Assembly (NCBI GenBank): GCA_963737905.1
Contig: CAVTUQ010000009.1
Span: forward strand, 160,001-224,000
Length of the DNA: 64,000 nt
DNA from: an uncultured delta proteobacterium
GTDB lineage: Bacteria > Desulfobacterota > Binatia > UBA9968
Reading direction: 5' to 3'
Position numbers and translations under genes: made by a program. The notes under the pieces were generated by a model that saw nothing but the letters and a program-made list of their open reading frames with translations, was not told the DNA's origin and searched no databases. Positions 7,434-58,728 of this stretch are shown here, one piece after another (position 1 is the stretch's first letter; every line of letters starts with the position of its first letter).

Positions 7434-8411
7434 ATGAAAGCGAAAGACGTCCGCTGGTGGTTTGCAACTTTCCTGATTACGGCATTTTTTCTGACCGTTG
7501 ACGCACACGCTGGGCAGAAGGATTTACAAAAACTCACGGTGGGCTACACCCCCATTTCGGGCGCCGCAATTCCGTTCTTTATCGCGGTAGAAGAAAAAAT
7601 CTTTCAAAAATACGGCTTCGAGGTCGCTCCGGTGTTTATGGGTGGGTCGCCGCTCATTAATTCGGCGATTCTTGCCGGAGAATTTCCCATTGGCTACACG
7701 GGAGGAGGCGCGATCATATCGAGCCGTCTCAGCGGTAGCGATCTCATCGCCATCGCGGAGCCATTGCCAGTTCTGACCATCGATGGTTGGGCAAAGCCCG
7801 AGATCAAGTCTGTTACGGATCTCAGGGGGAAGAGAGTCGGCGTGACGCGCTTCGGGGCATCGAGTTATTTCGCAGGGCTCTCGATGCTGGAGTCGGCTGG
7901 GATCAAGCCCAACGAGGTAACTTTTATCCAAAACGGCGGTGTCGGAGAGTCTTACGCTGCCCTTGTGGGCGGTCGAGTAGACGTTTGCATGATCGGCTAC
8001 CCGTTCGGGTTGAGGGCGAAGAAAGAAGGTTTCCATCTCCTTTTCCGCCCTTCGGACACCGAATATGGCCTGTTCCCCACGGCTGTCATCGGAGCTCGAG
8101 AATCCTGGCTGAAGGATGGCAAGAACCGCAAGTTTGCAATGGACTTTTTACGCGCGCTCAATGAAGGGCAACGGCTCGCTAGAGAAAATGCCGAAGTAAC
8201 CAAAAAAGCTCTGGGAAGATTTACCCGAACCAAGAACGATGCGGAATTGCAAGGTAGCTTTGATTTCTACAAAGACGCTTTTTCCAGCACCCTCCGGGTG
8301 GTAGAGAAGTCCATGGCGAATGCGCTCAAATTTGTCGAGCATCCCAAGGCCAAAGGGGCCGATGTCAAGCAGTTTTATGACAACAGTTTGGTCGACGAAG
8401 CCATAAAATGA
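7434..8411 (+). CDS. NMT1/SsuA-like ABC substrate-binding protein
   Basis: Signal peptide, IAVEEKIFQKYG, DLRGKRVGVTRFG, GRVD. Confidence 0.85.
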   Translation: MKAKDVRWWFATFLITAFFLTVDAHAGQKDLQKLTVGYTPISGAAIPFFIAVEEKIFQKYGFEVAPVFMGGSPLINSAILAGEFPIGYTGGGAIISSRLSGSDLIAIAEPLPVLTIDGWAKPEIKSVTDLRGKRVGVTRFGASSYFAGLSMLESAGIKPNEVTFIQNGGVGESYAALVGGRVDVCMIGYPFGLRAKKEGFHLLFRPSDTEYGLFPTAVIGARESWLKDGKNRKFAMDFLRALNEGQRLARENAEVTKKALGRFTRTKNDAELQGSFDFYKDAFSSTLRVVEKSMANALKFVEHPKAKGADVKQFYDNSLVDEAIK

Positions 8412-44176: not shown

Positions 44177-45463
44177 GTGCCAACGAGCGAGGCTGCTTTA
44201 CCGGAGGCTTCGCAGCCGTTTCGGGGTCCCCTCGGCATATTGCTCCGGTTCAGGGCCTTTGAGGCATTGCGCCATCGCGAATACCGTTTGATCTGGTACG
44301 GGCAAATCTTCGCGTCCATGGGAACCTGGATGGACCAGGTCACCCGGGGTTGGCTTATCTATGAGCTGACGGACTCCGCGCTCCAGCTCGGCTTGGTGCG
44401 GGGAGTTCAAGCCATACCTTTTCTCTTGTTATCTCCGGTGGCGGGCAGCGTCGCCGACCGCTATTCGCGCAAGATGCAGGTGGTGCTTACGCAGATCGCC
44501 AACGGGTTATTGTTTGGAGCGACGGCGTTGCTGATTCTTACCGGCCAGATCCGGCCGTGGCATGTCTATGTCACCGCGGTCTTAATGGCGATCGTTCAGG
44601 TCTTTCTGCAGCCGGCACGGGCGGCCCTGATTTCCGACGCCGTACCGGCCAACAACCTGACCAACGCCATCGGTCTCAACGCCGTTATTTTTAACGCCGC
44701 GCGCAGTACCGGCCCCGCCCTCGCAGGCGTGCTCATCGCCAAGTTCGGAACCGGCGAGGCATATTCCGTCCAGGCGATTTTTTTCTTTCTCGCAACGATC
44801 TGGACCACCCAGCTTCGTTCCGCAGAGCGTTCCGGCAGCGGCTCCCGCGGTGCCCACGGCGAGTCGTTCGGCCAAAGCATTATCGAAGGATGGAAATTCA
44901 GCTGGAGGAACGAAGTCGTTCGCACCGCTCTTCTCATCGTGATGTTCGTTTCGTTGCTGATTGTGCCGTTTACCACTCTCCTGCCGGTATTTGCGCGCGA
45001 CATTCTGCAAGTCGGCGCCACGGGGCAGGGGCTGCTGCTCATGGCTATGGGCGTGGGCGCGTTGTGCAGCGCCGTTCTCATCGCTTCCGTCGGCGATCGC
45101 TTGCCCCGGGGTATGCTTATGCTGGGCAGCGTGACGCTTTACGGATTTATTATCGTGATGTTTGCAGCATCACATTGGTTTTGGCTTTCAATGATATTGA
45201 TGGTCATCGTGGGCCTGTGCCACGTGCACTCGCACGCTCTTGTTCAAACCATCATTCAATCCTATTCTCCTTCCGAATTCCGCGGGCGGACCATGGCTAT
45301 CTTCCACATGAGCCAGGTGGTGATGACAGCCGGAGCCATGCTCTTCGGTGCGCTGTCATCGATTCTTGGGGCAGAGTGGGCGGTCGCATCGATGGGGGTC
45401 TTTGGCGCGCTGATCATGATCGGGATCTCCCTGGCCCTGCCGGCCGCCCGGTTTATCCGATAG
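44177..45463 (+). CDS. MFS transporter (MFS_3/DHA3-like)
   Basis: About 12 TM helices, GSVADRYSRK motif A, GPALAG, EFRGR. Confidence 0.9.
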   Translation: MPTSEAALPEASQPFRGPLGILLRFRAFEALRHREYRLIWYGQIFASMGTWMDQVTRGWLIYELTDSALQLGLVRGVQAIPFLLLSPVAGSVADRYSRKMQVVLTQIANGLLFGATALLILTGQIRPWHVYVTAVLMAIVQVFLQPARAALISDAVPANNLTNAIGLNAVIFNAARSTGPALAGVLIAKFGTGEAYSVQAIFFFLATIWTTQLRSAERSGSGSRGAHGESFGQSIIEGWKFSWRNEVVRTALLIVMFVSLLIVPFTTLLPVFARDILQVGATGQGLLLMAMGVGALCSAVLIASVGDRLPRGMLMLGSVTLYGFIIVMFAASHWFWLSMILMVIVGLCHVHSHALVQTIIQSYSPSEFRGRTMAIFHMSQVVMTAGAMLFGALSSILGAEWAVASMGVFGALIMIGISLALPAARFIR

Positions 45464-45466
45464 CCA

Positions 45467-46984
45467 TCATGCGGAGAGGGAGCCGCCGTGGATTTCCCGG
45501 TTTCGCATCCGAGCCAACACGCTGTGATATCTGCCGTAACCGAAATAAATGACAATGCCGACCAGCAACCACCCAATCAACCGAAACCAGTTTTCCGCCG
45601 GAAGAGAAAACATCAATAGCAGGCAGAAAGCTATGCCGAGAAGAGGCACGAGGGGCACCCATGGGCAGCGGAAAGGTCGCTTAATCTCCGGATGACGATA
45701 ACGCATGATGAGCACGGCGGTGCAGACGATGATGAATGCTAACAGGGTGCCGATATTCACCAGCTCTGCGAGCATTCTAAGCGGCAAGAGTGCCCCCATA
45801 AGCCCAACCGCTATTCCCGTCGAGATGGTGGATTTCCAGGGGGTGCGGAAGCGCGGGTGAACCGAACCAAAGAACCCGGGCGGCAGTAACCCGTCGCGTG
45901 CCATGGCCAGCATGATGCGCGGTTGGCTGAGCATGAGCACCATCAACACCGACGTAATCCCGGTCAGCGCGCCCAGCGAAATGACAAAATGCGCCCAAGG
46001 AAGCCCGACCCGACTAAACGCCTGAGAAAGGGGCGCATCGATTTCAATCTTATCGTAAGGAACCATGCCGGTCAGGACCGCCGCGACCGCGATGTACAAA
46101 ACCGTGCAGAGTGTGAGTGAGGCGATGATCCCGATGGGCACGTCACGACTCGGGTTGCGCGCCTCCTCGGCGTGGGTCGAGACCGAGTCGAAGCCGATGT
46201 AAGCGTAAAAGACGATTGCCGCTCCCGCTATGACACCGAGAGGCTCACCGCCCGGCCCATGTTGCCCCGCGATCGTATGGCCGAAGAAACTGATCCCGGA
46301 ATAACCATAGGGCGCAAAGGGCTGCCAGTTTTGCGGATCGATGTAGAAGACGCCCACCGCAACGATCAAAGCGATGACCGCTAGTTTGACCGCGACCATG
46401 ATCGTGTTGAAGCTCACGCTCTCACGAATCCCGATGATCAGGACGCCGGTAAGGAAGGCCGAGATCAGCAACGCCGGAAGATCGATAATCGCTCCGGTGG
46501 AAACAAATTTTCCGCTGGCGGGATTGAAGTCGAAGGGTGCATCCGTATAGGCGCGGGGCAGATGGATGTTTATGATAGCGAGGAAGTCCGAAAAGTAGTG
46601 AGACCAGCCGTGGGCCACGCTGGCTGCCCCGACACCATATTCGAGGAGCAAATCCCAGCCGATGATCCAGGCAAAGAGCTCGCCGAGAGTCGCATAGGCG
46701 TAAGTGTAAGCGGAACCGGCTACCGGCACCATGGAGGCGAATTCGGCGTAGCAGAGCGCGGCAAAGGTGCAAGCGAAGCCGGCGAGCACAAACGACAGCA
46801 TGGTCGCTGCCCCGGCTTTATCTTTGGCTACCAAACCGAGGATGATGAAAATACCGGCGCCGATAATCGCGCCGACGCCGAGACTGGTAAGCTGAAGGGG
46901 GCCGAGGACGGGCCGCAAACGGGTCTCGCCCATTTCCTTCAACAACAAGTGAGTCGGTTTTCTCGCGAAGATTGAGCCCGACAT
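45467..46984 (-). CDS. APC-family amino acid permease
   Basis: LGVGAIIGAGIF, CYAEFAS..PVAGSAY.YAY, YIGFD, RPFRCP. Confidence 0.93.
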   Translation of the reverse strand: MSGSIFARKPTHLLLKEMGETRLRPVLGPLQLTSLGVGAIIGAGIFIILGLVAKDKAGAATMLSFVLAGFACTFAALCYAEFASMVPVAGSAYTYAYATLGELFAWIIGWDLLLEYGVGAASVAHGWSHYFSDFLAIINIHLPRAYTDAPFDFNPASGKFVSTGAIIDLPALLISAFLTGVLIIGIRESVSFNTIMVAVKLAVIALIVAVGVFYIDPQNWQPFAPYGYSGISFFGHTIAGQHGPGGEPLGVIAGAAIVFYAYIGFDSVSTHAEEARNPSRDVPIGIIASLTLCTVLYIAVAAVLTGMVPYDKIEIDAPLSQAFSRVGLPWAHFVISLGALTGITSVLMVLMLSQPRIMLAMARDGLLPPGFFGSVHPRFRTPWKSTISTGIAVGLMGALLPLRMLAELVNIGTLLAFIIVCTAVLIMRYRHPEIKRPFRCPWVPLVPLLGIAFCLLLMFSLPAENWFRLIGWLLVGIVIYFGYGRYHSVLARMRNREIHGGSLSA

Positions 46985-47035
46985 ACAATCTTACGATTGG
47001 AAGATCACCCGCAGGCGCACTTTACATGCGCAACC

Positions 47036-48169
47036 CTAGAAGCCGATGATTCTTAATTGGAGCAAGCCGGAGAGATCGTTGTGGGAGTTGCCGGATGAAA
47101 TGAAATCGGGTTGTTGGTTGTAATTAACATTGAAAGATAGTGTATCGTCTTTTCCCAGAAAGTTCCCGATTTTCCAGTCCAGGGCTGTGGTGGTCCCAAA
47201 CGTCCTCACAATATTCAATCCGTCACCGCCATAGCTTCGGGCGAATGACGTCGTGCCGGTGAGCTTCAACACATCGCGGAAGGGAGTGTAGGCAAAGATG
47301 AGCTCCGTCCTCGGAGTTTCGATTCTAGCTCCAGTATTTGCATTCCGCTCTTCTCTGATGCTGAGATTAGGGTTCACAGAAAGGAAATCGAATGGGCGAT
47401 AAGAACCTGTGAGAGTATTCGTAAAAGCCGTCGTTGCTTGGTTTAGCGCTGCCCCTGCATCTATCCATTCGTAACTCGACGCAAACTTTGCTCCCCATTG
47501 TGACCGATTGATGTTGAGCGACGCAGTGGCGTTCTTGGTCACGCGCAGGCTGTTTACATCCAGGAGTTTCTCCCAGGACTCGCCGATGGATCCACGAAGA
47601 CTGAAGGGGCCTAGATTGTGCTCTCCCCAAAGTTGGCCTTCATCGCGGGTTTGGTCGGTTGCAGCCCCTGCGATGGAGACAAAGCCACGATCTGTGGATT
47701 TGTAGTCGGCGCCGTAGCCTAAACTTCCCCAACGGCTCTTAAGTCCAAGCCGGAGCATTTTTGGCCAATCCTGACAAGCACACTGGCCCGCCAAAGAATT
47801 GAGGGAGCTGTAGGACAGCTCGCCTTCGCCAGTTAAGCCGCTGCCGGCAAAGGAAGAGGTCGCCAGTAGATTTAAGTATTTCCGGGAATTGCCATCCTGC
47901 AAACCGCCGTTCGGCTCGCTGGGCGCATCGCGCTTTTCGAGGTACGAAGCCTTCAGTTCCAGGAGTTTTGGGCCGAAGCTTAGGACAAGCGTTTTTCCGG
48001 CAGGAACAGCGGGTCTGGGCATCCCGTCAATCTGAGAGAAAGCTGTCGGATCAGGTGCCAAGATAGGAGATGACGCCGGCTCAGGGAAAATCTGAGAAAG
48101 CTCAGGCTTTGCAGTGGTGCAAGCAGAAGAAAGGAAAATTAAGGCGGCTAGAAGATAAAATTTGCGCAC
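47036..48169 (-). CDS. Hypothetical outer-membrane beta-barrel-like lipoprotein
   Basis: Lipobox-like LSSAC, Pro-rich linker, alternating amphipathic strands, terminal LQLRIIGF beta-signal-like end. Confidence 0.6.
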   Translation of the reverse strand: MRKFYLLAALIFLSSACTTAKPELSQIFPEPASSPILAPDPTAFSQIDGMPRPAVPAGKTLVLSFGPKLLELKASYLEKRDAPSEPNGGLQDGNSRKYLNLLATSSFAGSGLTGEGELSYSSLNSLAGQCACQDWPKMLRLGLKSRWGSLGYGADYKSTDRGFVSIAGAATDQTRDEGQLWGEHNLGPFSLRGSIGESWEKLLDVNSLRVTKNATASLNINRSQWGAKFASSYEWIDAGAALNQATTAFTNTLTGSYRPFDFLSVNPNLSIREERNANTGARIETPRTELIFAYTPFRDVLKLTGTTSFARSYGGDGLNIVRTFGTTTALDWKIGNFLGKDDTLSFNVNYNQQPDFISSGNSHNDLSGLLQLRIIGF

Positions 48170-48250
48170 GGTAAAAACCTGTAAGATGATATTTTAGTCC
48201 ATCTTCGATTTTTACTAAAGAGGAGCCAAGCGGGGCGGCCGCAAGTCCGT

Positions 48251-49282
48251 CTAGAGGGAAAGCCTCTCCCAATCCGCGTTGGATGCATCGCGTGCAATCG
48301 AAAGCCCCCCATCGGACCCGGCAAAAATGGGATCCTTGACGACGGTCACTCGACCCCCTCCCAGGTCCGAGCAGGCTTTTTCGAGAGCAGTCGGGAGACC
48401 GGAAATGAGCGAGCTTCCGCCCGCTACAATAATATTGTTGCGCACCTGCTCCTGGTACTCGGGCTCCACCCTGGAGAGAAGATCGATCATGGTCTCCGAG
48501 ATGGGGGCCAGAATAGATTCACAGGCGGCGCGCATTTCATCTGTGATATCGAATTCTGTCGCCTTTCCCTTGGCTGGCACCGTGACCGTCACTCGACCCT
48601 TCGGATCACCGACGAAACTCCATTTTTCTTTCCAGTCACGGATCATATGAACCGAAACCTGGGCCTCAGGATGGTGCTCCTGCATCAGTTTTAAGAGGCG
48701 TTCGTCAATGGAATCACCGGCGTTTGGCAGCGTGCGCTGATCTTCCTCGGTAGGATAGCGGCCTTGCATGACACAAAAATCCGCCGTCCCGGCGCCAATA
48801 TCGATGATCATCGCGTGGAGCAATGCTTCCAAGCCGTAGGCCACCGCGAAAGGTTCAGACACCAACATCACGCTATCGGCAATGCCGTCCATGGCGCTCC
48901 GGAGTCTTTGTCTGCTGACTCGAAACGCCTCGGCCGGAACGCCGACAACCGCGCGTACCTTGCCTCGGTTCTTGCTTTTTTGCTTGAGGCCTATCAAGGA
49001 AATCAAATGGCGCAGTAATTCCTGGACCGCCTCCTCGTCCTTCGCCGATCCTTCTTTGATGACTCCGCGTTCGAGCGGCCGGCGGAGATCCAGCATCGAA
49101 CGATTGTCTAGGGCTTCGCGACCGACGAGGACGGTTTTCTTCACTAGTTTGCGGGCTACCATATCCAGGGGCCAGCCCACATAGCTGTCAACCACGTGAC
49201 GTTCGCCATTTGAAGCGGAGATGGAGCTTCGAGAGGTACCCAGATCTATTCCGATGCAGAGAGTTTCGTTGGTTTCTTCCAT
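48251..49282 (-). CDS. mamK: MamK-like bacterial actin (MreB/MamK family ATPase)
   Basis: GIDLGTS, VGWPLD, AVVGVPA, SEPFAVAYGL, DIGAGT..C...G..P..EDQ.TL..AG..IDE, KE.WSFVG, PEYQ..V.NNI..AGG, VKDP.FAG match recalled MamK-specific motifs rather than MreB. Confidence 0.85.
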   Translation of the reverse strand: MEETNETLCIGIDLGTSRSSISASNGERHVVDSYVGWPLDMVARKLVKKTVLVGREALDNRSMLDLRRPLERGVIKEGSAKDEEAVQELLRHLISLIGLKQKSKNRGKVRAVVGVPAEAFRVSRQRLRSAMDGIADSVMLVSEPFAVAYGLEALLHAMIIDIGAGTADFCVMQGRYPTEEDQRTLPNAGDSIDERLLKLMQEHHPEAQVSVHMIRDWKEKWSFVGDPKGRVTVTVPAKGKATEFDITDEMRAACESILAPISETMIDLLSRVEPEYQEQVRNNIIVAGGSSLISGLPTALEKACSDLGGGRVTVVKDPIFAGSDGGLSIARDASNADWERLSL

Positions 49283-50284
49283 AAATCAGCTACCTTTTTT
49301 TCCGAACCATTGAGGTTCTTCGCATAAGAAACAATGCCTCTCAGCAGCGCCTGCGCGATCTTTTCCCGATAATCGGCGTTTGTCAACAATTTAACGTCAT
49401 CTTCGTTCGACAGACAGGAAACCTCGGCCAAGACGGCGGGCATCTGAGTGCCGACGAGGACCGCGAAGGGGGCCATCTTCACGCCGCGATTTTCCAGTTC
49501 GGGGTTGATTTGGCTGAGTGACTGATAGAGTTCGGTGTTGATGGTCTTGGCAAGCGTATAGGATTCATCGCGCCGGGTGTCGAGGTAGATCTTTTCCAGC
49601 AGCCGCCGATAGTCAGCCAAAGAGTAACCGGAATCCCGGTTTTCAATGCCGGCGAGCTTGATCACGGCCGGATCGTTAGAGGCTCCGACATAGTACGTTT
49701 CCAGTGGCCGGATTTCACGGGGTTCCATCCAGTTTACATGGATCGAAACAAAAAGATCGGCGTTGTTGGCGTTGGCGAAAGCCACTCTTTTTTCCAGCGG
49801 TAAGGTTTCATCGGTGTGTCGCGTCATCAGCACTTCGAAAGGGACATCTTCCATGAGTCCGCGCAATCGGAGTGCGATGTCCAACGTGATGTCCTTCTCC
49901 GACACTCCTGATTCCGAGATAGCGCCATGTTGTTTACCGCCATGTCCCGGGTCGATTACGATTCTCTTGACCGAGAGAGGAAGGACCGACCGGTTTATTC
50001 GGGAAGGGGCCGGAAGAGGCGTCGCCGCTTTGAGCAGATGGCTCCCGGCCGCTATGTCCGTGGCGGCCGGGTTGGATGACGAATTCTTTGCCCCTCGAAA
50101 CCACCAGCGCCGGTACCGCCAGATAAACGATACTTGCGATCAGCAAAAACCCCCACAGCCAGACAGGAAATATGGCTTTGGGCTGCTCCTGGGGTTTGGT
50201 TGCGCTAACAACCCGCGTCCCTCCAACATTGCTCTGGATTGCCTCACGAAGGATGCGAAGTTTAGTCTGTTCTACGCTTTCCAT
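49246..50284 (-). CDS. Membrane-anchored N-acetylmuramoyl-L-alanine amidase (Amidase_3) (frameshift near 50095)
   Basis: N-terminal helix + TM (WLWGFLLIASIVYLAV) + Pro/Ser linker, then IVIDPGHGG, SEK, SIHVN, AEVSCLSN Zn/catalytic motifs. Confidence 0.85.
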
Positions 50285-51099
50285 TAGTATTGCCTTATCT
50301 CTTAGTTCGGCAAGATACCGCACGATCAAAAGAGCCAACTGGTTGCTATGTCTATCTTGCCGTAGGGCACGGAATACTCCGGATTTGTGAGACTCTTATG
50401 AGCAAAGGCAGGCGGCCGCTACGATTATCGAAGTTCCTATCTCTCGCAATTCTCTTTGTACCCTGACAACTAGGGCGGTTGTACGGCTGTTAGTTACCAG
50501 TGGATTGGGGCCGACGAACGGGTTGTAATAAATCGATGTTTGAGTCGGCACATACGGGCCTCCTCTACTCAAAATTGATCTGTAAGTCTAATCGAAAGTG
50601 GCGATTTACGCAATGAAAACTACCGATGGAACTGATGGAGCAGGCTCGATCTCTCGGTCTGATCACAGGAAAATCGTGTATAATAAAGACCCTCGTTTTG
50701 GTGTTAGATATACAGAGTTGTCTTTCTCTTCTCATCGTAGGAATCATCTACTGGCATTTGAGGCAACAAATTTCAGTTGCTCCGAGGGCGGCACTCCTCG
50801 CGGTCGTTTTTCCTTGAGCTTGATTCCTTATCTCGCGATTGTTCGTCAGCAAGGGATTCCCAATTTTCAATCTAATGGAGCTCAAGCCTGAGTGGACACG
50901 AGTTTATGAGGATCCTATGAGGAGCTCTTTGTTCGACGAGGTTCGCCGTTGGAAGAGGAGATCCGGCTTACAAAGCACCGGAGGTGTCGTACATGGGTGC
51001 AGGGTCATGCTTTCCGTGACCTGTCGGCGGGTCTCTTGGCCAGGTCCTTCCTTCCGTTCCAAATTTCGCCTATAAGTTGGGTTGAGAAAGGAGATTTCT

Positions 51100-51918
51100 A
51101 TGGCTACACAGCGCATCAGTTACGTTGACCCGGCGACGATTACCGATCCGGCAATGCTCGAAGAGCTCGATCGATGTCGCCGCGAGGGGACACCGCGCCC
51201 GGAAAGTTCCGCAATCCGTGCCCACGTGCCCGCTTGTTTTTGGTCGTTCGCGAATTCTTGGCGTGATATTTTCAAGAACGGCATTTGCGATCATAGCATC
51301 AAAGAACTCTGCCGCGTTTATGTTTCAAGATCGATCAACTGCGAGTACTGCGGCAACCAACGTTCGCTCAAAGCGGCCAAGGCGGGCCTCGAAGAGGCGC
51401 AGTACGACGACCTGTTGAACTTTGAGCAATCGAAGCGCTTTGACGAACGGCAAAAAGCCGCGCTGGCATACGCCGAAGCCATTACCTGGCATCTGGATAC
51501 CGATGACGCGTTCTGGCAGCGACTATATCAACATTTTTCCGAGCCGGAGCTGGTTGAGATCGGCTGTTTTGTCGCATTGACCATGGGCCAGCAGAGCTGG
51601 CTGCGCCTGCTAAACATCGAGCACCATCAAGTGCTGGCAGGGACCTCGGGAGGAATGGCGCCGGGATTCGAAACTTTCGAGGCTCTGGACAAATCGAAGG
51701 CATCCGCCGATTACTGGGCGAAAAAGGCATCCCTCGTTAACTGCGAAGAGTTAGAACGCCGAATTAAACGCATGGATATATCTCTCGTTGAGGTCTTTCA
51801 GAACCAAGAGTTGACCTCAGTATGCTCTTACACTAAAGTAAAGTCCGGCCTTTTTCTCCGTCCATGTCGATCCACGTCGCGCTGCACCACGTCACCCAAT
51901 ACTATTACGATCGCCTGA
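51100..51918 (+). CDS. Carboxymuconolactone decarboxylase/AhpD-like protein (real stop probably near 51740)
   Basis: KELCRVYVS..INCEYC, ERQKAALAYAE, HFSEPELVEI; AAGGAG RBS. Confidence 0.8.
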   Translation: MATQRISYVDPATITDPAMLEELDRCRREGTPRPESSAIRAHVPACFWSFANSWRDIFKNGICDHSIKELCRVYVSRSINCEYCGNQRSLKAAKAGLEEAQYDDLLNFEQSKRFDERQKAALAYAEAITWHLDTDDAFWQRLYQHFSEPELVEIGCFVALTMGQQSWLRLLNIEHHQVLAGTSGGMAPGFETFEALDKSKASADYWAKKASLVNCEELERRIKRMDISLVEVFQNQELTSVCSYTKVKSGLFLRPCRSTSRCTTSPNTITIA

Positions 51919-54900
51919 TTAACCTCGGCCCCCAGGTGGTCCGTCTGCGACCCGCGCCGCATTGTCGCACGCGGATTTTGAGCTATTCACTGCGGGTTGA
52001 GCCGGCCAAACACTTTATCAACTGGCAACAAGATCCCCAGGCGAATTATCTCGCTCGCCTGGTATTTCCCGAATCCACCCGCAAATTTCACGTCGAAGTC
52101 GATCTCGTCGCCGAGATGGCGGTCATCAACCCGTTCGATTTTTTCTTGGAACCCCACGCCGAGTATTATCCCTTCGAGTACGAGCCTTGGCAGCGGGTGG
52201 AGCTCGCGCCGTACTTCAGGCAGGAGCCGTTGACGCCGCTCTTCGATTGTTACTTGGCCGCGGTTTCGCGTGAGAAGATGCGCAGCGTCCCGTTTCTAGT
52301 CGAGCTCAACCGCCAGCTCGCCGGCGACATCGAATACCTGATCCGCATGGAGCCCGGCGTGCAGACGCCGGAAGAGACACTCACCAAACGGTCGGGCTCT
52401 TGCCGCGACTCGGGCTGGCTGCTCGTCCAACTGCTGCGCCGTCTTGGGCTCGCTGCGCGATTTGTCTCAGGCTATCTGATCCAACTCACCGCTGACGTCA
52501 AATCCCTTGACGGCCCGTCGGGGCCGGAAAAGGATTTCACTGATTTGCACGCCTGGGCCGAGGTGTATCTGCCGGGAGCCGGCTGGATCGGTCTTGACCC
52601 GACCTCCGGGTTATTCGCGGGCGAAGGTCATCTCCCGCTCTCCTGCACGCCTGAGCCGGCATCCGCCGCTCCGGTGACCGGCGCCATCGACGAGTGCGAG
52701 GTGGAGTTCTCTCACGAAATGACGGTCACGCGCATCTGGGAAGCGCCGCGGGTCACCAAGCCCTACACCGAAGAAGAGTGGCGGGCCATTGAGGAGCTGG
52801 GTCACGATGTCGATGCCGACCTTGCGGCTCGCGACGTGCGCCTGACCATGGGCGGGGAGCCGACGTTTGTTTCCATCGACGACCCCGACGGCGAAGAATG
52901 GAACACCGCGGCGCTGGGAACTGGCAAGCGCAGACTCGGTGCTGATCTCTATCAGCGTTTGCGCAAGCGCTACGGTGCGCAGGGCCTCGTCCATTTTGGC
53001 CAAGGCAAGTGGTATCCGGGCGAGCAACTGCCACGCTGGTCGCTCAACTGCTTTTGGCGTGCCGATGGCGAACCCATCTGGCGCGCCGAATCGCTGATCG
53101 CGGACGAGTCCCGGCCGGGCGACGCGACGGAAGCTACTGCGGCGGAGTTTCTGCGCGGCGTCGCCGAAAGGTTGGGACTCGACGCGCAGCACATATTCCC
53201 GGCCTATGAGGATGCTTATTATTTTCTATGGCGCGAGCGGCGATTGCCGGCCAACGTCGATCCTTTCGATTCCCGGCTCGACGATCCACTCGAACGCGAG
53301 CGCTTGGTGCGCGTATTCTCTCAAGGTCTCAAGCAGGTCGTCGGCTATGCCCTCCCGGTAACGCGGGACCCGGCGAGCGGACGCTGGCGCAGCGGATCTT
53401 GGTTTCTACGTAGCGAGCACTGTTATTTGGTCCCCGGCGACTCGCCTATGGGTTATCGTTTGCCGCTCGACTCTCTGCCGTGGGCTAAAGCCAGCGACTA
53501 TCCATACGTCTACCCGCCGGACCCCACGGTGCCGCTTCCGCCCCTTGTGAGCCATGCCGAATTCCGATTTCAGGTCGCCGCAAGGCGGTCCGCCGATCAG
53601 GCAACTTCAAGCGAGAGCCGTGCCGAGAGCGCCGGCTCGAAGCGGGACGGCTCCTTCGACCTGGCGCCGAGCCTCTTCGAGAGCGCGTCGTGGATCAACC
53701 GTTCGGCCATATGCGCGGAGCCAAGAAACGGAATTCTCTATGTTTTTATGCCGCCGATGGAATCGCTGGAGGATTACCTGGGACTCGTCGCCGCGATGGA
53801 AGCCACGGCGGAGGAGATGCGCCAACCCATTCTCTTTGAAGGCTACGAACCGCCGCGCGACCCGCGGCTAATTAATTTCCGGATCACTCCGGACCCCGGC
53901 GTGATCGAAGTGAACATTCATCCGTCGCGGCGCTGGGACGAGTTGGTGGAGCATACGACTTTCCTGTACGAGGCCGCGCGGGAGTCGCGGTTGGCAACCG
54001 AGAAATTTATGATCGACGGCCGCCACACCGGCACCGGTGGCGGCAATCACTTTGCGCTCGGCGGCGCGACGCCCAACGACTCGCCCTGGCTGCGCCGTCC
54101 GGATCTCTTGCGGAGCCTGGTGAGCTACTGGCACAACCACCCTTCGCTCTCGTATATGTTTTCCGGGCTATTCATCGGCCCCACTTCGCAAGCCCCGCGT
54201 ATCGACGAGGCACGCAACGACTCGGTGAACGAAATCGAAGTCGCGTTCCGCGAGATGAAGCGCCAGACGCAGTCGGACACTGACCCCTGTCCACCTTGGC
54301 TCCTCGATCGACTGATGCGCCATCTGCTTATCGACGTCACCGGTAATACGCACCGTTCCGAGTTTTGCGTCGATAAGCTTTATTCGCCGGACAGTGCCAC
54401 CGGCCGCCTCGGGCTCCTTGAAATGCGTGCTTTCGAGATGCCGCCCCACGCGCGCATGAGCCTGACCCAGCAACTGCTGCTGCGCACTCTCGTCGCGCGT
54501 TTCTGGCGAGCGCCTTATGCGCCGGCGCGGCTGGCGCGCTGGGGCACCGAACTGCACGATCGCTTCCTACTGCCGCACTTTGTCTGGCTTGACTTCAATG
54601 ACGTGATCACTGAATTGAACGAGGCCGGCTACCGGTTCGAGGCGCGGTGGTTTACGCCACACTTCGAGTTTCGTTTTCCGAAATACGGCGACCTCTCGAC
54701 TCGCGGCATCGATCTCGAGTTGCGCGGCGCCCTGGAGCCCTGGCACGTGCTGGGCGAGGAAGGCGCCGTCGGCGGCACGGCGCGTTATGTCGACTCGTCC
54801 CTCGAGCGGCTACAACTTAAGGTGACCGGGCTGCCGCCGGATCGCTACACGATCACTTGCAATAGGGTACCGCTACCCTTACAGACTACGGGAAGCGTGG

Positions 54901-55214
54901 GGGAGTTTGTGGCGGGAGTGCGCTACCGCGCGTGGCAGCCGTCATCCGCTCTTCACCCGACCATCGCTGTGCACGCGCCGCTCACGTTTGACATTGTGGA
55001 CCGTTGGATGCACCGGAGCCTCGGCGGCTGCCAGTATCACGTTATGCACCCCGGTGGGCGCAGCTATGCGACGTTTCCGGTGAACGCCTTCGAGGCCGAA
55101 AGCCGCCGCTTGGCGCGCTTCTTCCGCATCGGCCACACGCCGGGGCAGATGGAGGTCGGCGAGCCCCGCATCGATCCCGAGTTTCCGTTTACCCTCGATC
55201 TGCGCAAGATCTAG
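51864..55214 (+). CDS. Transglutaminase + DUF2126 (putative amidoligase) fusion
   Basis: Bact_transglu_N (LRPAPHCRT), GSCRDS / LHAWAEVY / GLDPT catalytic core, LTMGGEPTFVS, PDPGVIEVN, GTGGGNH, LLEMRAFEMPP. Confidence 0.92.
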   Translation: MSIHVALHHVTQYYYDRLINLGPQVVRLRPAPHCRTRILSYSLRVEPAKHFINWQQDPQANYLARLVFPESTRKFHVEVDLVAEMAVINPFDFFLEPHAEYYPFEYEPWQRVELAPYFRQEPLTPLFDCYLAAVSREKMRSVPFLVELNRQLAGDIEYLIRMEPGVQTPEETLTKRSGSCRDSGWLLVQLLRRLGLAARFVSGYLIQLTADVKSLDGPSGPEKDFTDLHAWAEVYLPGAGWIGLDPTSGLFAGEGHLPLSCTPEPASAAPVTGAIDECEVEFSHEMTVTRIWEAPRVTKPYTEEEWRAIEELGHDVDADLAARDVRLTMGGEPTFVSIDDPDGEEWNTAALGTGKRRLGADLYQRLRKRYGAQGLVHFGQGKWYPGEQLPRWSLNCFWRADGEPIWRAESLIADESRPGDATEATAAEFLRGVAERLGLDAQHIFPAYEDAYYFLWRERRLPANVDPFDSRLDDPLERERLVRVFSQGLKQVVGYALPVTRDPASGRWRSGSWFLRSEHCYLVPGDSPMGYRLPLDSLPWAKASDYPYVYPPDPTVPLPPLVSHAEFRFQVAARRSADQATSSESRAESAGSKRDGSFDLAPSLFESASWINRSAICAEPRNGILYVFMPPMESLEDYLGLVAAMEATAEEMRQPILFEGYEPPRDPRLINFRITPDPGVIEVNIHPSRRWDELVEHTTFLYEAARESRLATEKFMIDGRHTGTGGGNHFALGGATPNDSPWLRRPDLLRSLVSYWHNHPSLSYMFSGLFIGPTSQAPRIDEARNDSVNEIEVAFREMKRQTQSDTDPCPPWLLDRLMRHLLIDVTGNTHRSEFCVDKLYSPDSATGRLGLLEMRAFEMPPHARMSLTQQLLLRTLVARFWRAPYAPARLARWGTELHDRFLLPHFVWLDFNDVITELNEAGYRFEARWFTPHFEFRFPKYGDLSTRGIDLELRGALEPWHVLGEEGAVGGTARYVDSSLERLQLKVTGLPPDRYTITCNRVPLPLQTTGSVGEFVAGVRYRAWQPSSALHPTIAVHAPLTFDIVDRWMHRSLGGCQYHVMHPGGRSYATFPVNAFEAESRRLARFFRIGHTPGQMEVGEPRIDPEFPFTLDLRKI

Positions 55215-55225
55215 GCGAAAGCACT

Positions 55226-55246
55226 ATGAGCCAGCAATCACAGTGA
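55226..55246 (+). other. Intergenic micro-ORF MSQQSQ
   Basis: ATG AGC CAG CAA TCA CAG TGA between operon genes; weak RBS; translation unproven. Confidence 0.2.
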
Positions 55247-55290
55247 ACCGAGGAGTTAGCGTCGTTGAACGTTGAATAACCTTGAATTTT

Positions 55291-57825
55291 ATGCCACTGT
55301 CATCCTTCGCGAGTTACCTACCCCAGCCGGAACGTTACGACGAAGTCTTCGGCATGGATGGTCGCCCGCGCCCTCACTGGAAGCGGCTCGCGGAGGCGGC
55401 GGCGCGGGCAAGCCGCGCCGAGTTATCGCGTCGGGCAGGGACCATCCGTCACGCTGTGGATCAGGATGGTGTAACGTACAACATCTATGCCGATCCGAAG
55501 GGGGCCGACCGGCCTTGGGAAGTCGATCTGCTGCCATTGATCATCAGCACCGAGGAGTGGCGCTTTTTGGCGAAGGCGGTACAGCAGCGCGCTCGCCTCC
55601 TGAACGCCGTCCTTGCCGATCTCTATGGAGCGGGCCGCTTGCTTGCCGAAGGTTTGCTTCCACCTGCCATCATCCAAGGTCACCACAATTATCTCTGGCC
55701 TTGCCGCGGGCTGGAGCCACCCGGCGGTACTTTTCTCAATCTTTACGGTTGCGATCTGGCCCGCTCTCCCGACGGCCGCTGGTGGGTCATCGCCGACCGC
55801 ACGCAGGGTCCCTCCGGCGCGGGATACGCGGTGCAAAACCGGCTCATCGTTACGCCTATGTATGGACGGCTGTTCCGATCGCTCGGCGTGCAGCGGCTCG
55901 CCGGTTTTTTCCGCACCTTGCAACAGCGGTTGGCGGCTCTCGCCCCCACCGACGGCGAGGCGCCGCTCATCGCGCTCCTGACACCCGGGCCGTACAACGA
56001 AACATACTTCGAGCAGGTCTTCCTTGCTCGCTATCTGGGCTTTGCCCTCGTGGAAGGGTCGGACCTCACCATACGTGATAATAGAGTCTATTTGAAAACC
56101 CTCGAAGGTCTAAAGCGGGTGCACGTTCTGCTCCGCCGTCTCGACGACGAATACTGCGATCCATTGGCTCTGCGTACCGACTCTGCGCTCGGGGTGCCAG
56201 GGTTGCTTGGTGCCGTGCGTGCCGGAAATGTGGCCATCGCCAATGCTCTTGGCTCGGGGGTGCTGGAGACGCCCGCCTTGCCGGGTTTTCTCCCGGCAAT
56301 TTGCCAAACGCTGCTCGGCGAGCCCCTTGAGCTACCTTCCATTGCGACCTGGTGGTGTGGGGAAGCGCCGGCGCTCGAGCATGCGATCAAGCATCTCCCC
56401 GAGCTGGTCATCAAGCCGGCCTTTCCCTCCATGAAGCTTGAACCGACTTTTGGACATGTACTCGACGGCGCTGGCCGGGAAGCGATGGTTGAGAGAATAC
56501 GCGCGACGCCGCACGCCTTTGTGGCCCAGGAGTGGGTGCGCCTTTCCCAGGCGCCTACTTGGTCCAGCGAGCGCGAGCGATTCGAGCCGCGGGTGGTCGG
56601 ATTGCGGCTCTACGCGGTAGCCACCGCCACCGGCTACGACGTCATGCCCGGTGGACTCGCACGGGTCTCGCCCGAGACCAGCACCGAGGTTATCAGTATG
56701 CAGCGTGGCGGATCGAGCAAAGACACTTGGGTGCTGGACGGTGCCGCGACGGTGTATCAATCGCTACTGCAGCCCCGTCTCACCGCCCGAGACATCGTAC
56801 ACAGCGGTTTTTACTCTCCTTCGCGCGCGGTGGAGAATCTTTTCTGGATGGGACGTTACGCCGAGCGCGTCGAATCGGTTGGCCGTCTGCTGCGCGCCAC
56901 GGCTCTGCGGCTGGTCGAAAGCGACCCGTCAAACTCGGCAGGTGTCGAGGTGCTGACCGCTTTGTGCGAAAGCGCGCGGCTTGGCGAAATGTCGCCCGCG
57001 GCCACGACGCCATCTTCGACGAGGAAAAAAGCAAAAAAAACAGTAAACGGCGGCGACGATTGGTTGCTGGCGGCCGTCGGGGATCCGCGAGTCGCAAACG
57101 GTGTTCCGGCTAACACGGCGCGCCTGCTCTACTGCGCGACCCAACTTCGGGATCGAATTTCGCTCGACAACTGGCATACCGTTCAACGTCTTGCTCATGC
57201 GCACGAGCCCGCGCCAAAGGATATCGAAGCCGCCTTGACGATTATCGATCAAGTATTGCCTGCCTGCACCGCCCTTGCGGGCTACGCATTCGATGATATG
57301 ACGCGAGACGATGCCTGGCGATTCCTGGCGACGGGACGCCGCTTGGAGCGTATGGCCTTCCTGGCATCGGTGGTCGCCCAGGTCTTGGCGCGGCCGGAGG
57401 AGGAACGCGAGGCGGCGCTCGGCGCGCTCCTCGAAATAGGTAACATCATCATCACCTATCGCGCGCGCTACCAGCGGCAGCCTGAACTCCTTCCGGTCGT
57501 CGATCTTCTGGTCAAAGACGAGTCGAATCCTCACGCGGTCTGCTTCCAGCTCGCGCTGCTCAGCCGGGAAGTTCACGAGTTCGAAGCTCGACTGGGTTTC
57601 CGCCCGATCAACAATCCACTTCCATTGCTCCACTCCCTTCGGCTGTTCGACTTGGCCGAGTTCGATAACCATCGTCTGTCCCATGGCGAGCCGGAGCGAT
57701 TCGGCGAGTCCCTCGCCACGATGCTCAGGGCGTGCGAGCGCCTTGCCCACGGGCTTTCCGACGAGTTGTCGCAGCGTTTCTTCGTGCACGCGGGAGAGCG
57801 ACCACAAGCGAGTGTGGCGGCATGA
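55291..57825 (+). CDS. Circularly permuted type 2 ATP-grasp + alpha-E domain protein
   Basis: YDE..G..RPHW, DRTQGPSGAGY, LLTPGPYNETYFE, RRLDD..CDPL, MPGGLARV, GG.SKDTWV, ENLFWMGRY.ER, GRRLER. Confidence 0.92.
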   Translation: MPLSSFASYLPQPERYDEVFGMDGRPRPHWKRLAEAAARASRAELSRRAGTIRHAVDQDGVTYNIYADPKGADRPWEVDLLPLIISTEEWRFLAKAVQQRARLLNAVLADLYGAGRLLAEGLLPPAIIQGHHNYLWPCRGLEPPGGTFLNLYGCDLARSPDGRWWVIADRTQGPSGAGYAVQNRLIVTPMYGRLFRSLGVQRLAGFFRTLQQRLAALAPTDGEAPLIALLTPGPYNETYFEQVFLARYLGFALVEGSDLTIRDNRVYLKTLEGLKRVHVLLRRLDDEYCDPLALRTDSALGVPGLLGAVRAGNVAIANALGSGVLETPALPGFLPAICQTLLGEPLELPSIATWWCGEAPALEHAIKHLPELVIKPAFPSMKLEPTFGHVLDGAGREAMVERIRATPHAFVAQEWVRLSQAPTWSSERERFEPRVVGLRLYAVATATGYDVMPGGLARVSPETSTEVISMQRGGSSKDTWVLDGAATVYQSLLQPRLTARDIVHSGFYSPSRAVENLFWMGRYAERVESVGRLLRATALRLVESDPSNSAGVEVLTALCESARLGEMSPAATTPSSTRKKAKKTVNGGDDWLLAAVGDPRVANGVPANTARLLYCATQLRDRISLDNWHTVQRLAHAHEPAPKDIEAALTIIDQVLPACTALAGYAFDDMTRDDAWRFLATGRRLERMAFLASVVAQVLARPEEEREAALGALLEIGNIIITYRARYQRQPELLPVVDLLVKDESNPHAVCFQLALLSREVHEFEARLGFRPINNPLPLLHSLRLFDLAEFDNHRLSHGEPERFGESLATMLRACERLAHGLSDELSQRFFVHAGERPQASVAA

Positions 57826-58728
57826 GCGCGAGCAGTGTGCGTTGTTACCGGGTCGATGCATCGGACCACCTATCGGTATTCAGAGCCGGTGACCCTTTCT
57901 CATCAGCAGCTCCACCTGACCCCGCGCCTGCTCGCTTACCAGCGCACCCGTGTGCACGAGGTGGCCATCACGCCGCCGCCGACCTATCGCCGGGAGCGCA
58001 CAGACGCTTTCGGCAATCCGGTGACCGACATGGCCATTGAGGCGCCCCATACCACGCTTGAGATTGTTGGCCGTTCGGTCATCGAAGTTGGCGGACGAGA
58101 ACCTCCCGAGGCCGATAAAACAGTGGCCTGGGAAACCGTCCGCGAAGCGCTTGCTTATCGCGCCGGCTGGCGCCCGGACCCTGAGGCGCTCGAAGCCACA
58201 CGGTTTCTCTTCGAATCGCCCCATGCGCGCGTAAAAAGGGACCTACGAGCCTACGCGAGCGATTGCTTCAGGCCTGGACGTTCGGTGCTGGAGGCGGCCC
58301 AGGGGCTCATGGACAAAATCCATGGTGAGTTCAAGTTTGATCCTGAGGCAACGACCACCACAACCCCGGTCATGACGTTCTTCGAGCAAAAGCGCGGCGT
58401 GTGTCAGGACTTCACCCACTTTATGATTTCTTGCTTGCGTTCCACCGGGCTCCCCGCTCGTTACCTGAGCGGCTATCTCGTGCCGCGATCAACGTCGGGT
58501 AAACAACGGCCGGTGGGGGCGGAGGCCTCCCATGCGTGGGTGGCCGTGTTCGTTCCCGGCAGCGGCTGGGTCGAGCTCGATCCGACCAATAACGTGCTGC
58601 CGTCCTTGGGGCATATTACGTTGGGATGGGGCCGCGATTTCTCCGATGTGACGCCGTTACGCGGTGTCATCAATGGCGGCGGAGAGCAGAGGCTTACGGT
58701 AAAAGTGACCATCGAGTTGGATGAGTAA
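57822..58728 (+). CDS. Transglutaminase-family protein (frameshift near 57855)
   Basis: ATGA overlap with the previous gene; H.T.Y.Y, DAFGN, GVCQDF, ARYLSGY, SHAWV, DPTN, GRDFSDV.P. Confidence 0.9.

What the first reader, a model, noticed from the sequence alone, without database searches (positions are those of the whole stretch)
47036..50284. Candidate new envelope/cytoskeleton module: peptidoglycan amidase + MamK-like actin + outer-membrane beta-barrel lipoprotein
Seen: three co-oriented minus-strand genes. The amidase 3' end overlaps or abuts the actin start, and the barrel gene follows after ~80 bp. Established: MamK forms the filament that aligns magnetosomes and is normally found with mamA/B/E/I/M/Q, whereas MreB operons carry mreC/mreD/pbp2/rodA. 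Neither context occurs here. Inference: a stand-alone actin filament positions an inner-membrane-anchored amidase that opens the cell wall locally beneath an OM channel. Possible roles include trans-envelope conduit or appendage assembly, localized remodelling, or an ancestral non-magnetosome MamK function. I know of no described system with this composition.
Basis: partly seen in the sequence, partly recalled or inferred. Interest (0 to 1): 0.88.

Follow-up and report, generated by a model that had tools for sequence, protein, structure and literature searches.

The report
Cell-wall amidase paired with MamK-like actin
A membrane-anchored cell-wall-cutting enzyme and a MamK-type bacterial actin form a tightly linked gene pair kept together in several bacterial phyla, which suggests a cytoskeleton that steers a wall hydrolase from inside the cell; the neighbouring outer-membrane barrel gene is not part of it.

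Summary
The three minus-strand genes exist as described. They are an Amidase_3 gene (50284-49246), a MamK-family actin (49282-48251) and a predicted outer-membrane beta-barrel (48169-47036). In this assembly the amidase frame is broken by one extra base near 50084. That base is missing from contigs of 4 of 4 soil-metagenome runs and from both same-genus relatives, so it is probably an assembly error or a private allele.

The amidase-actin pair is real and conserved. The amidase lies directly upstream of the actin in 49 of 53 loci from MAGs labelled Binatia/Deltaproteobacteria, Acidobacteriota, Methylomirabilota and Rhodothermales. Among 61 related genomes, the same 21 carry both genes. The amidase has no AMIN domain. 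Instead it has a conserved cytoplasmic N-terminal helix and one transmembrane helix. A complex prediction docks that helix onto the actin (ipSAE 0.75, best control 0.00).

The barrel is linked only within the genus. The genome shows no magnetosome genes.

Best reading: an undescribed two-gene module in which an actin filament positions or tethers an accessory peptidoglycan amidase. The three-part trans-envelope idea is not supported.

The parts
49246..50284 (-). Gene for a bitopic Amidase_3 peptidoglycan amidase. It is about 345 aa if read as in its relatives. In this assembly one extra base splits it into two frames.
   Evidence: ORFs and frames. Pfam Amidase_3 9.6e-50. Intact one-frame orthologues of 327-441 aa in 46 other loci. 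The same-genus orthologue is 345 aa.
50225..50275 (-). Codons 4-20 of the amidase: conserved cytoplasmic N-terminal helix motif (basic-x-basic-L/I-L/I-R-x-A-V/I-x-D/E-N-hydrophobic). Predicted actin-binding element.
   Evidence: Alignment A2: N19 invariant, K8 in at least 90% of 35 rows. A regular expression for the motif matched 44 of 46 amidases; the other 2 are near-matches by eye. The motif is also present in two more distant loci, L098 and L099. Predicted interface residues of the peptide are 4, 7-12, 14-16 and 18-20. The full-length AF2 model of the same-genus orthologue has a helix at 10-33.
50099..50176 (-). Codons about 37-62 of the amidase: a single hydrophobic transmembrane segment preceded by basic residues. 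N-terminus inferred to be in the cytoplasm.
   Evidence: Sequence. Aligned hydrophobic stretch after an Arg/Lys-rich stretch in the homologues. Helix 50-65 in the AF2 model of the orthologue. Topology is inferred from the positive-inside rule, not computed.
50084..50088 (-). Site of one extra base that shifts the amidase frame in this assembly.
   Evidence: DNA alignment with L043 and L044. 'Left out 1' at 50084 in every covering contig of runs X1, X2, X3 and X5.
49333..49962 (-). Amidase_3 catalytic domain of the AmiA/AmiB/AmiC type, with the roughly 40-residue insert.
   Evidence: Pfam match covers residues 25-234 of the 262-aa frame. Full-length alignment to solved AmiA 8c2o, AmiB 3ne8 and AmiC 4bin, including the insert. 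Foldseek top hit is AmiA, TM 0.81 on the target. The GHGG His, the Glu, the His and the second Glu columns are invariant in A4.
48251..49282 (-). MamK-family actin-like ATPase, 343 aa, of the amidase-linked clade.
   Evidence: NCBIfam MamK 373.8 bits (cut-off 400), BeeR 216.7, MreB 73.5. 250 bits to solved chains 5ljw/5jyg, 146 to 8r2n, about 53 to MreB chains. Clade of 40 rows with SH-aLRT 93.
47036..48169 (-). Neighbouring gene, not part of the conserved module: predicted outer-membrane beta-barrel with a lipoprotein-like signal (Cys17). Family of unknown function.
   Evidence: No Pfam or NCBIfam hit. 131 homologues, all named 'hypothetical' or unnamed. AF2 model with about 17 strands. Foldseek hits to porins, PgaA and maltoporin at TM 0.3-0.5. 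Linked to the actin only in the genus.

Best explanation
The finding is a conserved two-gene operon.

Gene 1 encodes a bitopic peptidoglycan amidase. It has a short cytoplasmic N-terminal helix, one transmembrane helix, a disordered periplasmic linker and an AmiA/B/C-type Amidase_3 domain.

Gene 2 is translationally coupled to gene 1 and encodes a MamK-family actin.

Proposed mechanism:
- The actin polymerises in the cytoplasm.
- The amidase's conserved N-terminal helix docks on the actin at a site built from residues 138-155, 174-176 and 329-341. I read this, from memory of actin-fold structures, as the hydrophobic cleft between subdomains IA and IIA.
- The filament thereby decides where in the membrane this accessory amidase sits, and so where stem peptides are cut from the wall.
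- Conversely, the amidase tethers the filament to the membrane.

Shown here: gene order, coupling, co-occurrence, domain make-up and motif conservation. Predicted here: the contact. Inferred: polymerisation, topology, enzyme activity and the cellular role.

The barrel gene downstream is a genus-specific neighbour. The frameshift in this window is most likely an assembly error.
For: - Adjacency: the amidase lies directly upstream on the same strand in 47 of 51 distinct loci, and in 2 of 2 further loci at 51-53% actin identity from other families of the phylum. The record labels span Binatia/Deltaproteobacteria/Thermodesulfobacteriota, Acidobacteriota, Methylomirabilota, Rokubacteria and Rhodothermales. 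Flanking genes differ between these groups.
- Coupling: the gap from amidase stop to actin start is -4 to +6 nt in 35 of 39 loci with an unextended actin ORF.
- Co-occurrence: in 61 related genomes, the 21 with the actin are exactly the 21 with an amidase match of 48% identity or more. The other 40 have only a 33-40% match (36 genomes) or none (4 genomes).
- Accessory status: the genome also has a canonical AMIN+Amidase_3 amidase on another contig. The actin-linked enzyme lacks AMIN.
- Motif: the conserved N-terminal motif is the only conserved part of the cytoplasmic tail, and it holds even at 23-28% overall identity.
- Complex prediction: ipSAE 0.75, 0.75 and 0.76, best of 3 controls 0.00. 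That mark was reached by 58 of 80 solved complexes and 2 of 110 mismatched pairs. The runs agree in at least 76% of contacts and the partner pLDDT is at least 60. My own alignments were used, so these counts hold only roughly. The interface on the peptide is the conserved motif.
- Clade-specific interface residues: several actin interface positions carry residues typical of the amidase-linked clade, namely L155, R175, Y176, A333 and D337.
- Phylogeny: amidase-linked actins form one clade (SH-aLRT 93). More distant MamK-like loci at 34-43% identity have no amidase within the flanks fetched: 0 of 5, and L083.
- Frameshift: 4 of 4 runs lack the extra base.
Against: - There is no experiment. The contact is a model's prediction, and a helix in an actin cleft resembles solved actin-peptide complexes, so part of the score could be memory.
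- If the site is the inter-protomer cleft, binding might compete with polymerisation and so act on monomers or filament ends rather than filament sides.
- One paralogous actin (L039, a second copy in G004) has no amidase next to it.
- In two MAGs the actin is truncated or frameshifted (L038, L078).
- If the extra base at 50084 is real in this strain, the module is broken here.
- Related genomes are not independent, so the perfect co-occurrence overstates the support.
- The cellular role (division, shape, local remodelling) is not constrained by any result here.
Confidence: 0.65

Rival explanations
1. One reading: a three-component trans-envelope module in which the actin positions the amidase to open the wall beneath the outer-membrane barrel.
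For: The three genes are co-oriented. The barrel starts 81 nt after the actin in the window and in both same-genus loci. The barrel is a predicted outer-membrane protein.
Against: - The barrel is adjacent in only 3 of 53 loci, all of one genus.
- In 10 related genomes with both genes, the barrel lies on a different contig.
- 5 genomes have the barrel without the actin, and in 8 with the actin no barrel was found.
- Downstream genes elsewhere are unrelated: an SH3_3 protein, a small TM/coiled-coil protein, an unnamed 396-aa ORF (cluster c21/c30) and others.
Confidence: 0.04
2. The two genes are co-transcribed but functionally independent. For example, the actin serves another cargo (DNA, an organelle, cell shape) and the amidase is only an operon passenger. 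The predicted contact would then be a false positive.
For: - MamK-like actins outside magnetotactic bacteria have other neighbours. A flotillin-like gene is reported in Thiomargarita (preprint 10.1101/2022.04.11.487978, passage read).
- L039 sits upstream of a 1374-aa repeat-rich protein.
- Complex predictors do give false passes: 2 of 110 mismatched pairs in the tool's calibration.
Against: - The pair moves as a unit between unrelated neighbourhoods in several phyla.
- Presence and absence match in 61 of 61 genomes.
- The cytoplasmic tail of a periplasmic enzyme carries a conserved helix that has no other evident reason to be conserved.
- The interface falls on that helix.
Confidence: 0.15
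3. The locus is a remnant or satellite of a magnetosome gene cluster, meaning a true MamK that has lost its context.
For: MamK is the best-scoring family. Some clade members exceed the NCBIfam cut-off: L080 at 420.4 and P0125 at 425.2.
Against: - In the genome (87.5% complete), no MamI was found (the model rang in no control genome either).
- MamP matches cover only the PDZ part.
- MamQ gives only an 80-bit LemA-like match against a cut-off of 250.
- The clade is separate from the clade holding P0147, which scores 508 bits for MamK and 463 bits to the solved chains.
- The partner gene is conserved in phyla whose loci show no mam genes.
Confidence: 0.03
4. In this particular organism the amidase is a true pseudogene, and the module is decaying here.
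For: The window as assembled has the frameshift. Two other MAGs show a broken actin (L038, L078).
Against: Near-identical contigs from 4 of 4 runs of 2 studies lack the extra base; one covering 155-nt piece has 2 other letters and 1 gap. Both same-genus genomes are in frame. No other damage is seen, and the catalytic columns are intact.
Confidence: 0.15

Closest known systems
MamK (magnetosome actin; NCBIfam NF040964; solved chains 5ljw/5ljv/5jyg, which I recall to be Magnetospirillum MamK)
   Same: It is the best-scoring family (373.8 bits) and the best solved relative (250 bits over residues 6-341). The protein has the same length and the same actin-fold motifs.
   Different: The score is below the curated cut-off of 400. 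The protein falls in a separate clade from the P0147 group. The genome shows no magnetosome genes. The conserved partner is an amidase, not MamJ/MamY-type proteins (the latter recalled).
AmiA/AmiB/AmiC cell-separation amidases
   Same: Amidase_3 domain with the extra insert. It aligns over its full length to solved AmiA, AmiB and AmiC. The top fold match is AmiA. The catalytic columns are conserved.
   Different: NCBIfam scores are far below the cut-offs: AmiA 114.7 against 400 and AmiC 104.8 against 700. There is no AMIN domain and no cleavable signal; instead there is a cytoplasmic helix plus a TM anchor. The genome keeps a separate AMIN-type amidase.
FtsA-FtsN and MreB-RodZ (actin-fold proteins binding the cytoplasmic part of bitopic envelope proteins; recalled)
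   Same: The logic is the same: a cytoplasmic actin homologue holds a single-pass protein whose periplasmic part deals with peptidoglycan.
   Different: The actin family differs, the predicted site differs, and here the partner is itself the hydrolase. None of this was tested here beyond.
MreBH-LytE of Bacillus subtilis (actin homologue governing a wall hydrolase; recalled)
   Same: An actin homologue directs where a peptidoglycan hydrolase acts.
   Different: LytE is secreted, is an endopeptidase and is not encoded with mreBH. Here there is a dedicated operon and a direct membrane-spanning link.
ParM-ParR (recalled) and BeeR (preprint 10.1101/2023.11.07.565980, passages read)
   Same: ParR uses a short helix that docks in the ParM cleft (recalled). 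BeeR is another MamK relative in non-magnetotactic bacteria.
   Different: ParMRC moves DNA. BeeR scores only 216.7 against a cut-off of 530 here, and BeeR-like rows (P0237, BeeR 506.5 bits against that cut-off) form a different clade. The preprint text does not contain the word amidase.

Membership tests
MamK family (NCBIfam NF040964) | Whole-protein score at or above the curated cut-off (400 bits) | tested here: not met
   373.8 bits. Clade mates straddle the cut-off: L074 376.5, P0121 392.7, L080 420.4, P0125 425.2.
MamK family (NCBIfam NF040964) | MamK is the best-scoring actin-like family and the closest solved structure | tested here: met
   MamK 373.8, BeeR 216.7, MreB 73.5 bits. Solved chains: 250, 146 and about 53 bits.
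MamK (magnetosome function) | Encoded with magnetosome genes (mamI, mamP, mamQ and others) | tested here: not met
   MamI none (the model rang in no control genome). MamP only PDZ-region matches of 35 bits or less. MamQ 80.3 bits against a cut-off of 250, on another contig. The genome is 87.5% complete. Window neighbours are transporters, hydrolases and a DUF2126 protein.
MamK / bacterial actins | ATP-dependent filament formation | not testable with these tools
   Only conservation of the phosphate-binding and SEPxA motifs was seen.
MreB | Score above the NCBIfam cut-off and mreC/mreD context | tested here: not met
   73.5 bits against 293 and 62.2 against 365.75. A separate MreB-like gene lies on contig C37. 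No mreC/mreD-like domains among the 10 neighbours scanned.
BeeR | Score above the cut-off (530 bits) | tested here: not met
   216.7 bits. It is in a different clade from P0237, the closest BeeR-like representative (506.5 bits, itself below the cut-off of 530).
Amidase_3 (PF01520) | Domain score above the gathering threshold and conserved metal-binding/catalytic columns | tested here: met
   169.5 bits against 27. The H127, E142, H195 and E300 columns are invariant in A4. That these are the zinc ligands and the catalytic Glu is recalled.
AmiA/AmiB/AmiC type | Regulatory insert in the catalytic domain | tested here: inconclusive
   The insert is present and aligns with AmiA, AmiB and AmiC, and the model has helices at 218-228 and 235-242. 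Whether it occludes the active site was not examined.
AmiA/AmiB/AmiC type | AMIN targeting domain or equivalog-level score | tested here: not met
   No AMIN domain. AmiA 114.7 against 400, AmiC 104.8 against 700, AmiB 81.6 against 532.
Outer-membrane beta-barrel (generic) | Closed antiparallel barrel, C-terminal aromatic residue, signal peptide | tested here: met
   About 17 strands. 34 Foldseek matches at E of 0.001 or lower, the listed ones mainly outer-membrane barrels. The protein ends in Gly-Phe, which is invariant, and Cys17 is in at least 90% of rows. Lipidation is inferred only.
   Linked in 3 of 53 loci, all in one genus. Unlinked or not found elsewhere.

The most novel reading that the evidence does not exclude
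A clade of MamK-family actins has nothing to do with magnetosomes. It forms, with its operon partner, an inside-out targeting system. A cytoplasmic filament grips the N-terminal tail of a single-pass peptidoglycan amidase and so dictates from the cytoplasm where the wall is cut. This would be the first bacterial actin whose dedicated, co-encoded cargo is a cell-wall hydrolase. It is present in abundant, mostly uncultured soil lineages (Binatia-labelled MAGs, Thermoanaerobaculia, Rhodothermales).
Probability: 0.45. Interest if true: 0.8.

Novelty: new variant of a known kind. Interest (0 to 1): 0.7.

Why it matters
Outside magnetotactic bacteria, the function of MamK-like actins is open. The papers I could search note such proteins in Saltatorellota, Beggiatoaceae/Thiomargarita and Verrucomicrobiota (BeeR) without a partner or a role.

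This locus offers a concrete, testable partner: a short conserved peptide on a wall amidase. It also offers a simple hypothesis for how a hydrolase can be placed from the cytoplasmic side, as an alternative to periplasmic AMIN targeting.

The pair is small (about 2.1 kb), so it can be expressed in E. coli for binding, filament and localisation tests. It may also explain aspects of cell shape or division in abundant uncultured soil lineages.

Tried and rejected
- **Three-part module:** rejected on distribution.
- **Magnetosome context:** searched with the NCBIfam MamI, MamP and MamQ models in the own genome. Nothing convincing was found. The MamI model rang in no control genome, so its silence is weak. 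NF040962 turned out to be an unrelated family.
- **Terminator and promoter scan** of 45300-51200: promoter-like sites were at chance level (3 against 3.0 expected). One weak terminator-like stem (48240-48224) lies between the actin and the barrel. This is not enough to decide whether they are co-transcribed.
- **Rfam and tRNA scans** of the window: nothing found.
- **Literature:** searches found no paper that links a MamK-like actin with an amidase. 'amidase' occurs 0 times in the three preprints read by passages. PMC7203096 was read for one passage only and is not relevant. Only the held library was searched and supplements were not seen, so an earlier description cannot be excluded.
- **RNA evidence:** one metatranscriptome run held a small share of the words (0.08).
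I labelled clades by NCBIfam scores and PDB similarity instead.
- **Tree limits:** the tree is a quick IQ-TREE search (LG+G4, SH-aLRT only) rooted on a long MreB branch. Deep order among MamK-like clades is not resolved.


Full report
**What is in the window.**
On the minus strand lie three ORFs. A 377-aa ORF is at 47036-48169, a 343-aa ORF at 48251-49282, and an amidase gene runs from the ATG at 50284 to the stop at 49246. The amidase is not one frame here. The first roughly 67 codons are in one frame, in an ORF that runs on to 49934. The Amidase_3 domain is in another frame. Pfam gives Amidase_3 at 9.6e-50 for the catalytic frame and MreB_Mbl at 4.6e-24 for the middle ORF. It gives nothing for the 377-aa ORF or for the amidase N-terminal piece. 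The neighbours are ordinary: an amino-acid permease, an MFS transporter, an esterase, an amidohydrolase and a transglutaminase/DUF2126 protein. The amidase overlaps the actin start by 37 nt. The third gene starts 81 nt after the actin stop.

**The frameshift.**
An alignment of the window with the two same-genus loci shows one extra base in the window near 50085-50088, just after the transmembrane segment. All 46 other amidase genes examined are single frames of 327-441 aa. I laid Logan contigs of four soil-metagenome runs (two studies) on 49200-50400. Every contig covering the place lacks one letter at 50084: one contig each in X1, X2, X3 and X5, at depths 2.8, 3.1, 10.4 and 8.34. The other indels seen lie upstream of the start codon. 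The extra base is therefore private to this assembly. It is most likely an assembly or sequencing error, and less likely a strain-specific lesion. Contigs cannot exclude a rare allele. Read as in its relatives, the protein would be about 345 aa, like the same-genus orthologue.

**The actin.**
NCBIfam ranks MamK first at 373.8 bits (cut-off 400), then BeeR at 216.7 (cut-off 530) and MreB at 73.5 (cut-off 293). Among solved structures the best matches are chains 5ljw, 5jyg and 5ljv (250 bits), then 8r2n (146 bits), then MreB chains (about 53 bits). I recall the first group as Magnetospirillum MamK and 8r2n as BeeR. The own genome is 6.7 Mb in 46 contigs, 87.5% complete and 6.7% contaminated. It has this one MamK-like gene and a separate MreB-like gene on another contig. 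No MamI was found (a weak test because the model rang in no control genome). MamP matches cover only the PDZ part. MamQ gives only an 80-bit LemA-like match. The gene is therefore MamK-like, not an MreB, and it is not in a magnetosome setting.

**Conservation of the neighbourhood.**
In 61 related genomes the actin is present in 21. Excluding the window's own genome, that is 20 of 36 genomes of the same family and 0 of 24 of two sister families. A scan of one genome per species found 41 loci. Their records are labelled Binatia, Deltaproteobacteria, Thermodesulfobacteriota, Methylomirabilota, Rokubacteria, Acidobacteriota/Thermoanaerobaculia, Rhodothermales and one Rhodopirellula.

After removing 9 duplicates I had 51 distinct loci including the window. 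In 47 of them the amidase lies directly upstream on the same strand. The four exceptions are:
- L049, where the amidase runs off the contig end.
- L079, where the actin starts at the contig end.
- L039, a second actin copy in a genome (G004) that also has the linked pair.
- L083, the Rhodopirellula homologue at 38% identity.

Two further homologues at 51-53% identity from other families of the phylum also have the amidase upstream. Five loci at 34-43% identity do not. The stop-to-start distance is -4 to +6 nt in 35 of 39 loci. Outside the pair, the flanking genes are unrelated between phyla.

The 21 genomes with the actin are exactly the 21 with an amidase match of 48% identity or more. The remaining 40 have only the 33-40% match of the canonical amidase (36 genomes) or none (4 genomes). 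Related genomes are not independent, but presence is patchy even within genera (g9, g19, g20). The two genes are therefore gained and lost together.

**The barrel.**
The 377-aa protein belongs to a small family: 131 homologues, all unnamed or 'hypothetical', with no Pfam domain. The AF2 model (mean pLDDT 70.8) is an all-beta protein of about 17 strands behind a signal-like helix. Foldseek finds outer-membrane barrels such as PgaA, maltoporin and porins at TM 0.3-0.5, a generic likeness. Cys17 and the terminal Gly-Phe are conserved.

It is next to the actin only in the window and the two same-genus genomes. Among the 61 relatives:
- 10 have both genes on different contigs.
- 5 have the barrel without the actin.
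- In 8 with the actin no barrel was found.

Elsewhere the gene after the actin is an SH3_3 protein (5 loci), a small TM/coiled-coil protein (6 loci) or something unrelated. The barrel is a neighbour, not a component.

**The amidase.**
The catalytic domain aligns over its whole length, including a roughly 40-residue insert, with solved AmiA, AmiB and AmiC. Amidases without the insert align only over the first half. The model of the same-genus orthologue (mean pLDDT 81.1) has these parts:
- an N-terminal helix at 10-33,
- a hydrophobic helix at 50-65,
- a disordered linker,
- a confident catalytic domain.

The best fold match of that domain is E. coli AmiA, with TM 0.81 on the target. The His/Glu/His/Glu columns are invariant. 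There is no AMIN domain. The genome's second Amidase_3 gene, on contig C7, is a canonical AMIN+Amidase_3 protein. The actin-linked enzyme is thus an extra amidase whose periplasmic targeting domain is replaced by a cytoplasmic tail and a membrane anchor.

**The tail and the predicted contact.**
The only conserved part of the cytoplasmic tail is a helix motif: basic-x-basic-L/I-L/I-R-x-A-V/I-x-D/E-N-hydrophobic. N19 is invariant and K8 is nearly so, across rows that share as little as 22-28% overall identity. A pattern for it matched 44 of 46 amidases, and the other two are near-matches.

I submitted the actin (alignment of 35 rows) with amidase residues 1-40 (alignment of 35 rows) to the complex predictor. 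The results were as follows:
- ipSAE was 0.75, 0.75 and 0.76, and the best of three controls was 0.00.
- The mark was reached by 58 of 80 solved complexes and 2 of 110 mismatched pairs.
- The runs agree in at least 76% of contacts, and the partner pLDDT is at least 60.
- The counts hold only roughly, because my own alignments were used.
- The peptide residues in contact are 4, 7-12, 14-16 and 18-20, which is the motif.
- The actin residues in contact are 138-141, 145, 149, 152, 154-155, 174-176, 329, 332-333, 337 and 340-341.

From memory of actin-fold structures, this is the hydrophobic cleft between subdomains IA and IIA, where ParR and many eukaryotic actin binders sit. That likeness means part of the score could be memory. 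Several of these actin positions carry residues typical of the amidase-linked clade and different in other MamK-like clades: L155, R175, Y176, A333 and D337. This supports binding but does not show it.

**Phylogeny.**
The tree had 107 rows:
- the window and 34 linked loci,
- 3 unlinked loci,
- 68 of the 150 listed representatives of the 50%-identity library (82 fragments were left out),
- the own MreB as outgroup.

Twelve linked loci were left out of the alignment. Two came from unpublished genomes, two had a broken actin, and eight were omitted for brevity. In the tree all linked actins fall in one clade of 40 rows (SH-aLRT 93). P0147, which scores 508 bits for MamK and 463 bits to the solved chains, lies in another clade. 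BeeR-like P0237 (506.5 bits for BeeR, against a cut-off of 530) lies in a third. Members of the linked clade straddle the NCBIfam cut-off at 374-425 bits. The tree is a quick search and the deep order is unresolved.

**What I conclude.**
The conserved unit is amidase plus actin. The most likely working is that the filament holds the tail of the bitopic amidase and so positions it, or is itself tethered to the envelope by it. This adds cytoskeleton-directed wall cleavage to the AMIN-targeted septal amidase the cell already has. Polymerisation, topology, activity and the cellular process served are inferred, not shown.

**Prior literature.**
I found no description of such a pair in the library searched.

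Noticed in passing
L039 (G004:C807), actin at 2343-3374, long ORF at 3869-7993: A second, amidase-less copy of the actin (77% identical) lies 494 nt upstream of a 1374-aa highly repetitive, Glu/Leu/Lys-rich protein that looks like a coiled coil. Its only Pfam hit is a weak Bacillus_HBL match. An MFS gene lies upstream. This may be a different cargo or adaptor for a paralogue.
   Followed up: partly
Proteins P0137, P0139, P0141, P0144, P0148, P0150, P0151, P0155, P0158, P0159, P0162, P0163, P0167, P0138: A well-supported clade (SH-aLRT 99) of 14 representatives, 523-1232 aa long, carries a MamK-like domain at the C-terminus. The long N-terminal regions have no Pfam domain in the four I scanned. 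Source and context are unknown.
   Followed up: partly
Protein P0199 (768 aa): A fusion of an FtsZ-type tubulin domain (Tubulin + FtsZ_C) with a C-terminal MamK-like actin domain. It falls in the clade of the bona fide MamK-like P0147.
   Followed up: no
Loci L026, L027, L028, L031, L034 (downstream of the actin): In five genera a secreted protein of about 220-260 aa with a bacterial SH3_3 domain follows the actin. In six others a small TM plus coiled-coil protein with no Pfam hit follows. These may be lineage-specific accessories of the module.
   Followed up: partly
L038 (G031:C4) and L078: The actin is truncated (169-aa ORF) in L038 and split between two frames in L078, while the amidase upstream is intact. 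This is either decay or assembly error.
   Followed up: no
window 51864-58728 (+): A transglutaminase-N/DUF2126 protein (1116 aa) is followed by an 847-aa ORF and a 297-aa paralogous piece. The same set occurs next to the pair in the same-genus locus L033. GC content rises to 0.62 across 52-58 kb, against about 0.54 elsewhere.
   Followed up: no
L102 (G338:C1) and L103 (G280:C12): Two genomes of the same phylum carry two adjacent MamK-like genes (34-41% identical to the window's actin) with no amidase. They may be true magnetosome-type clusters.
   Followed up: no
G014:C867:3-773: A second, partial copy of the actin-linked amidase (61% identity) sits on a very short contig of one MAG. This is probably strain heterogeneity or contamination.
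   Followed up: no
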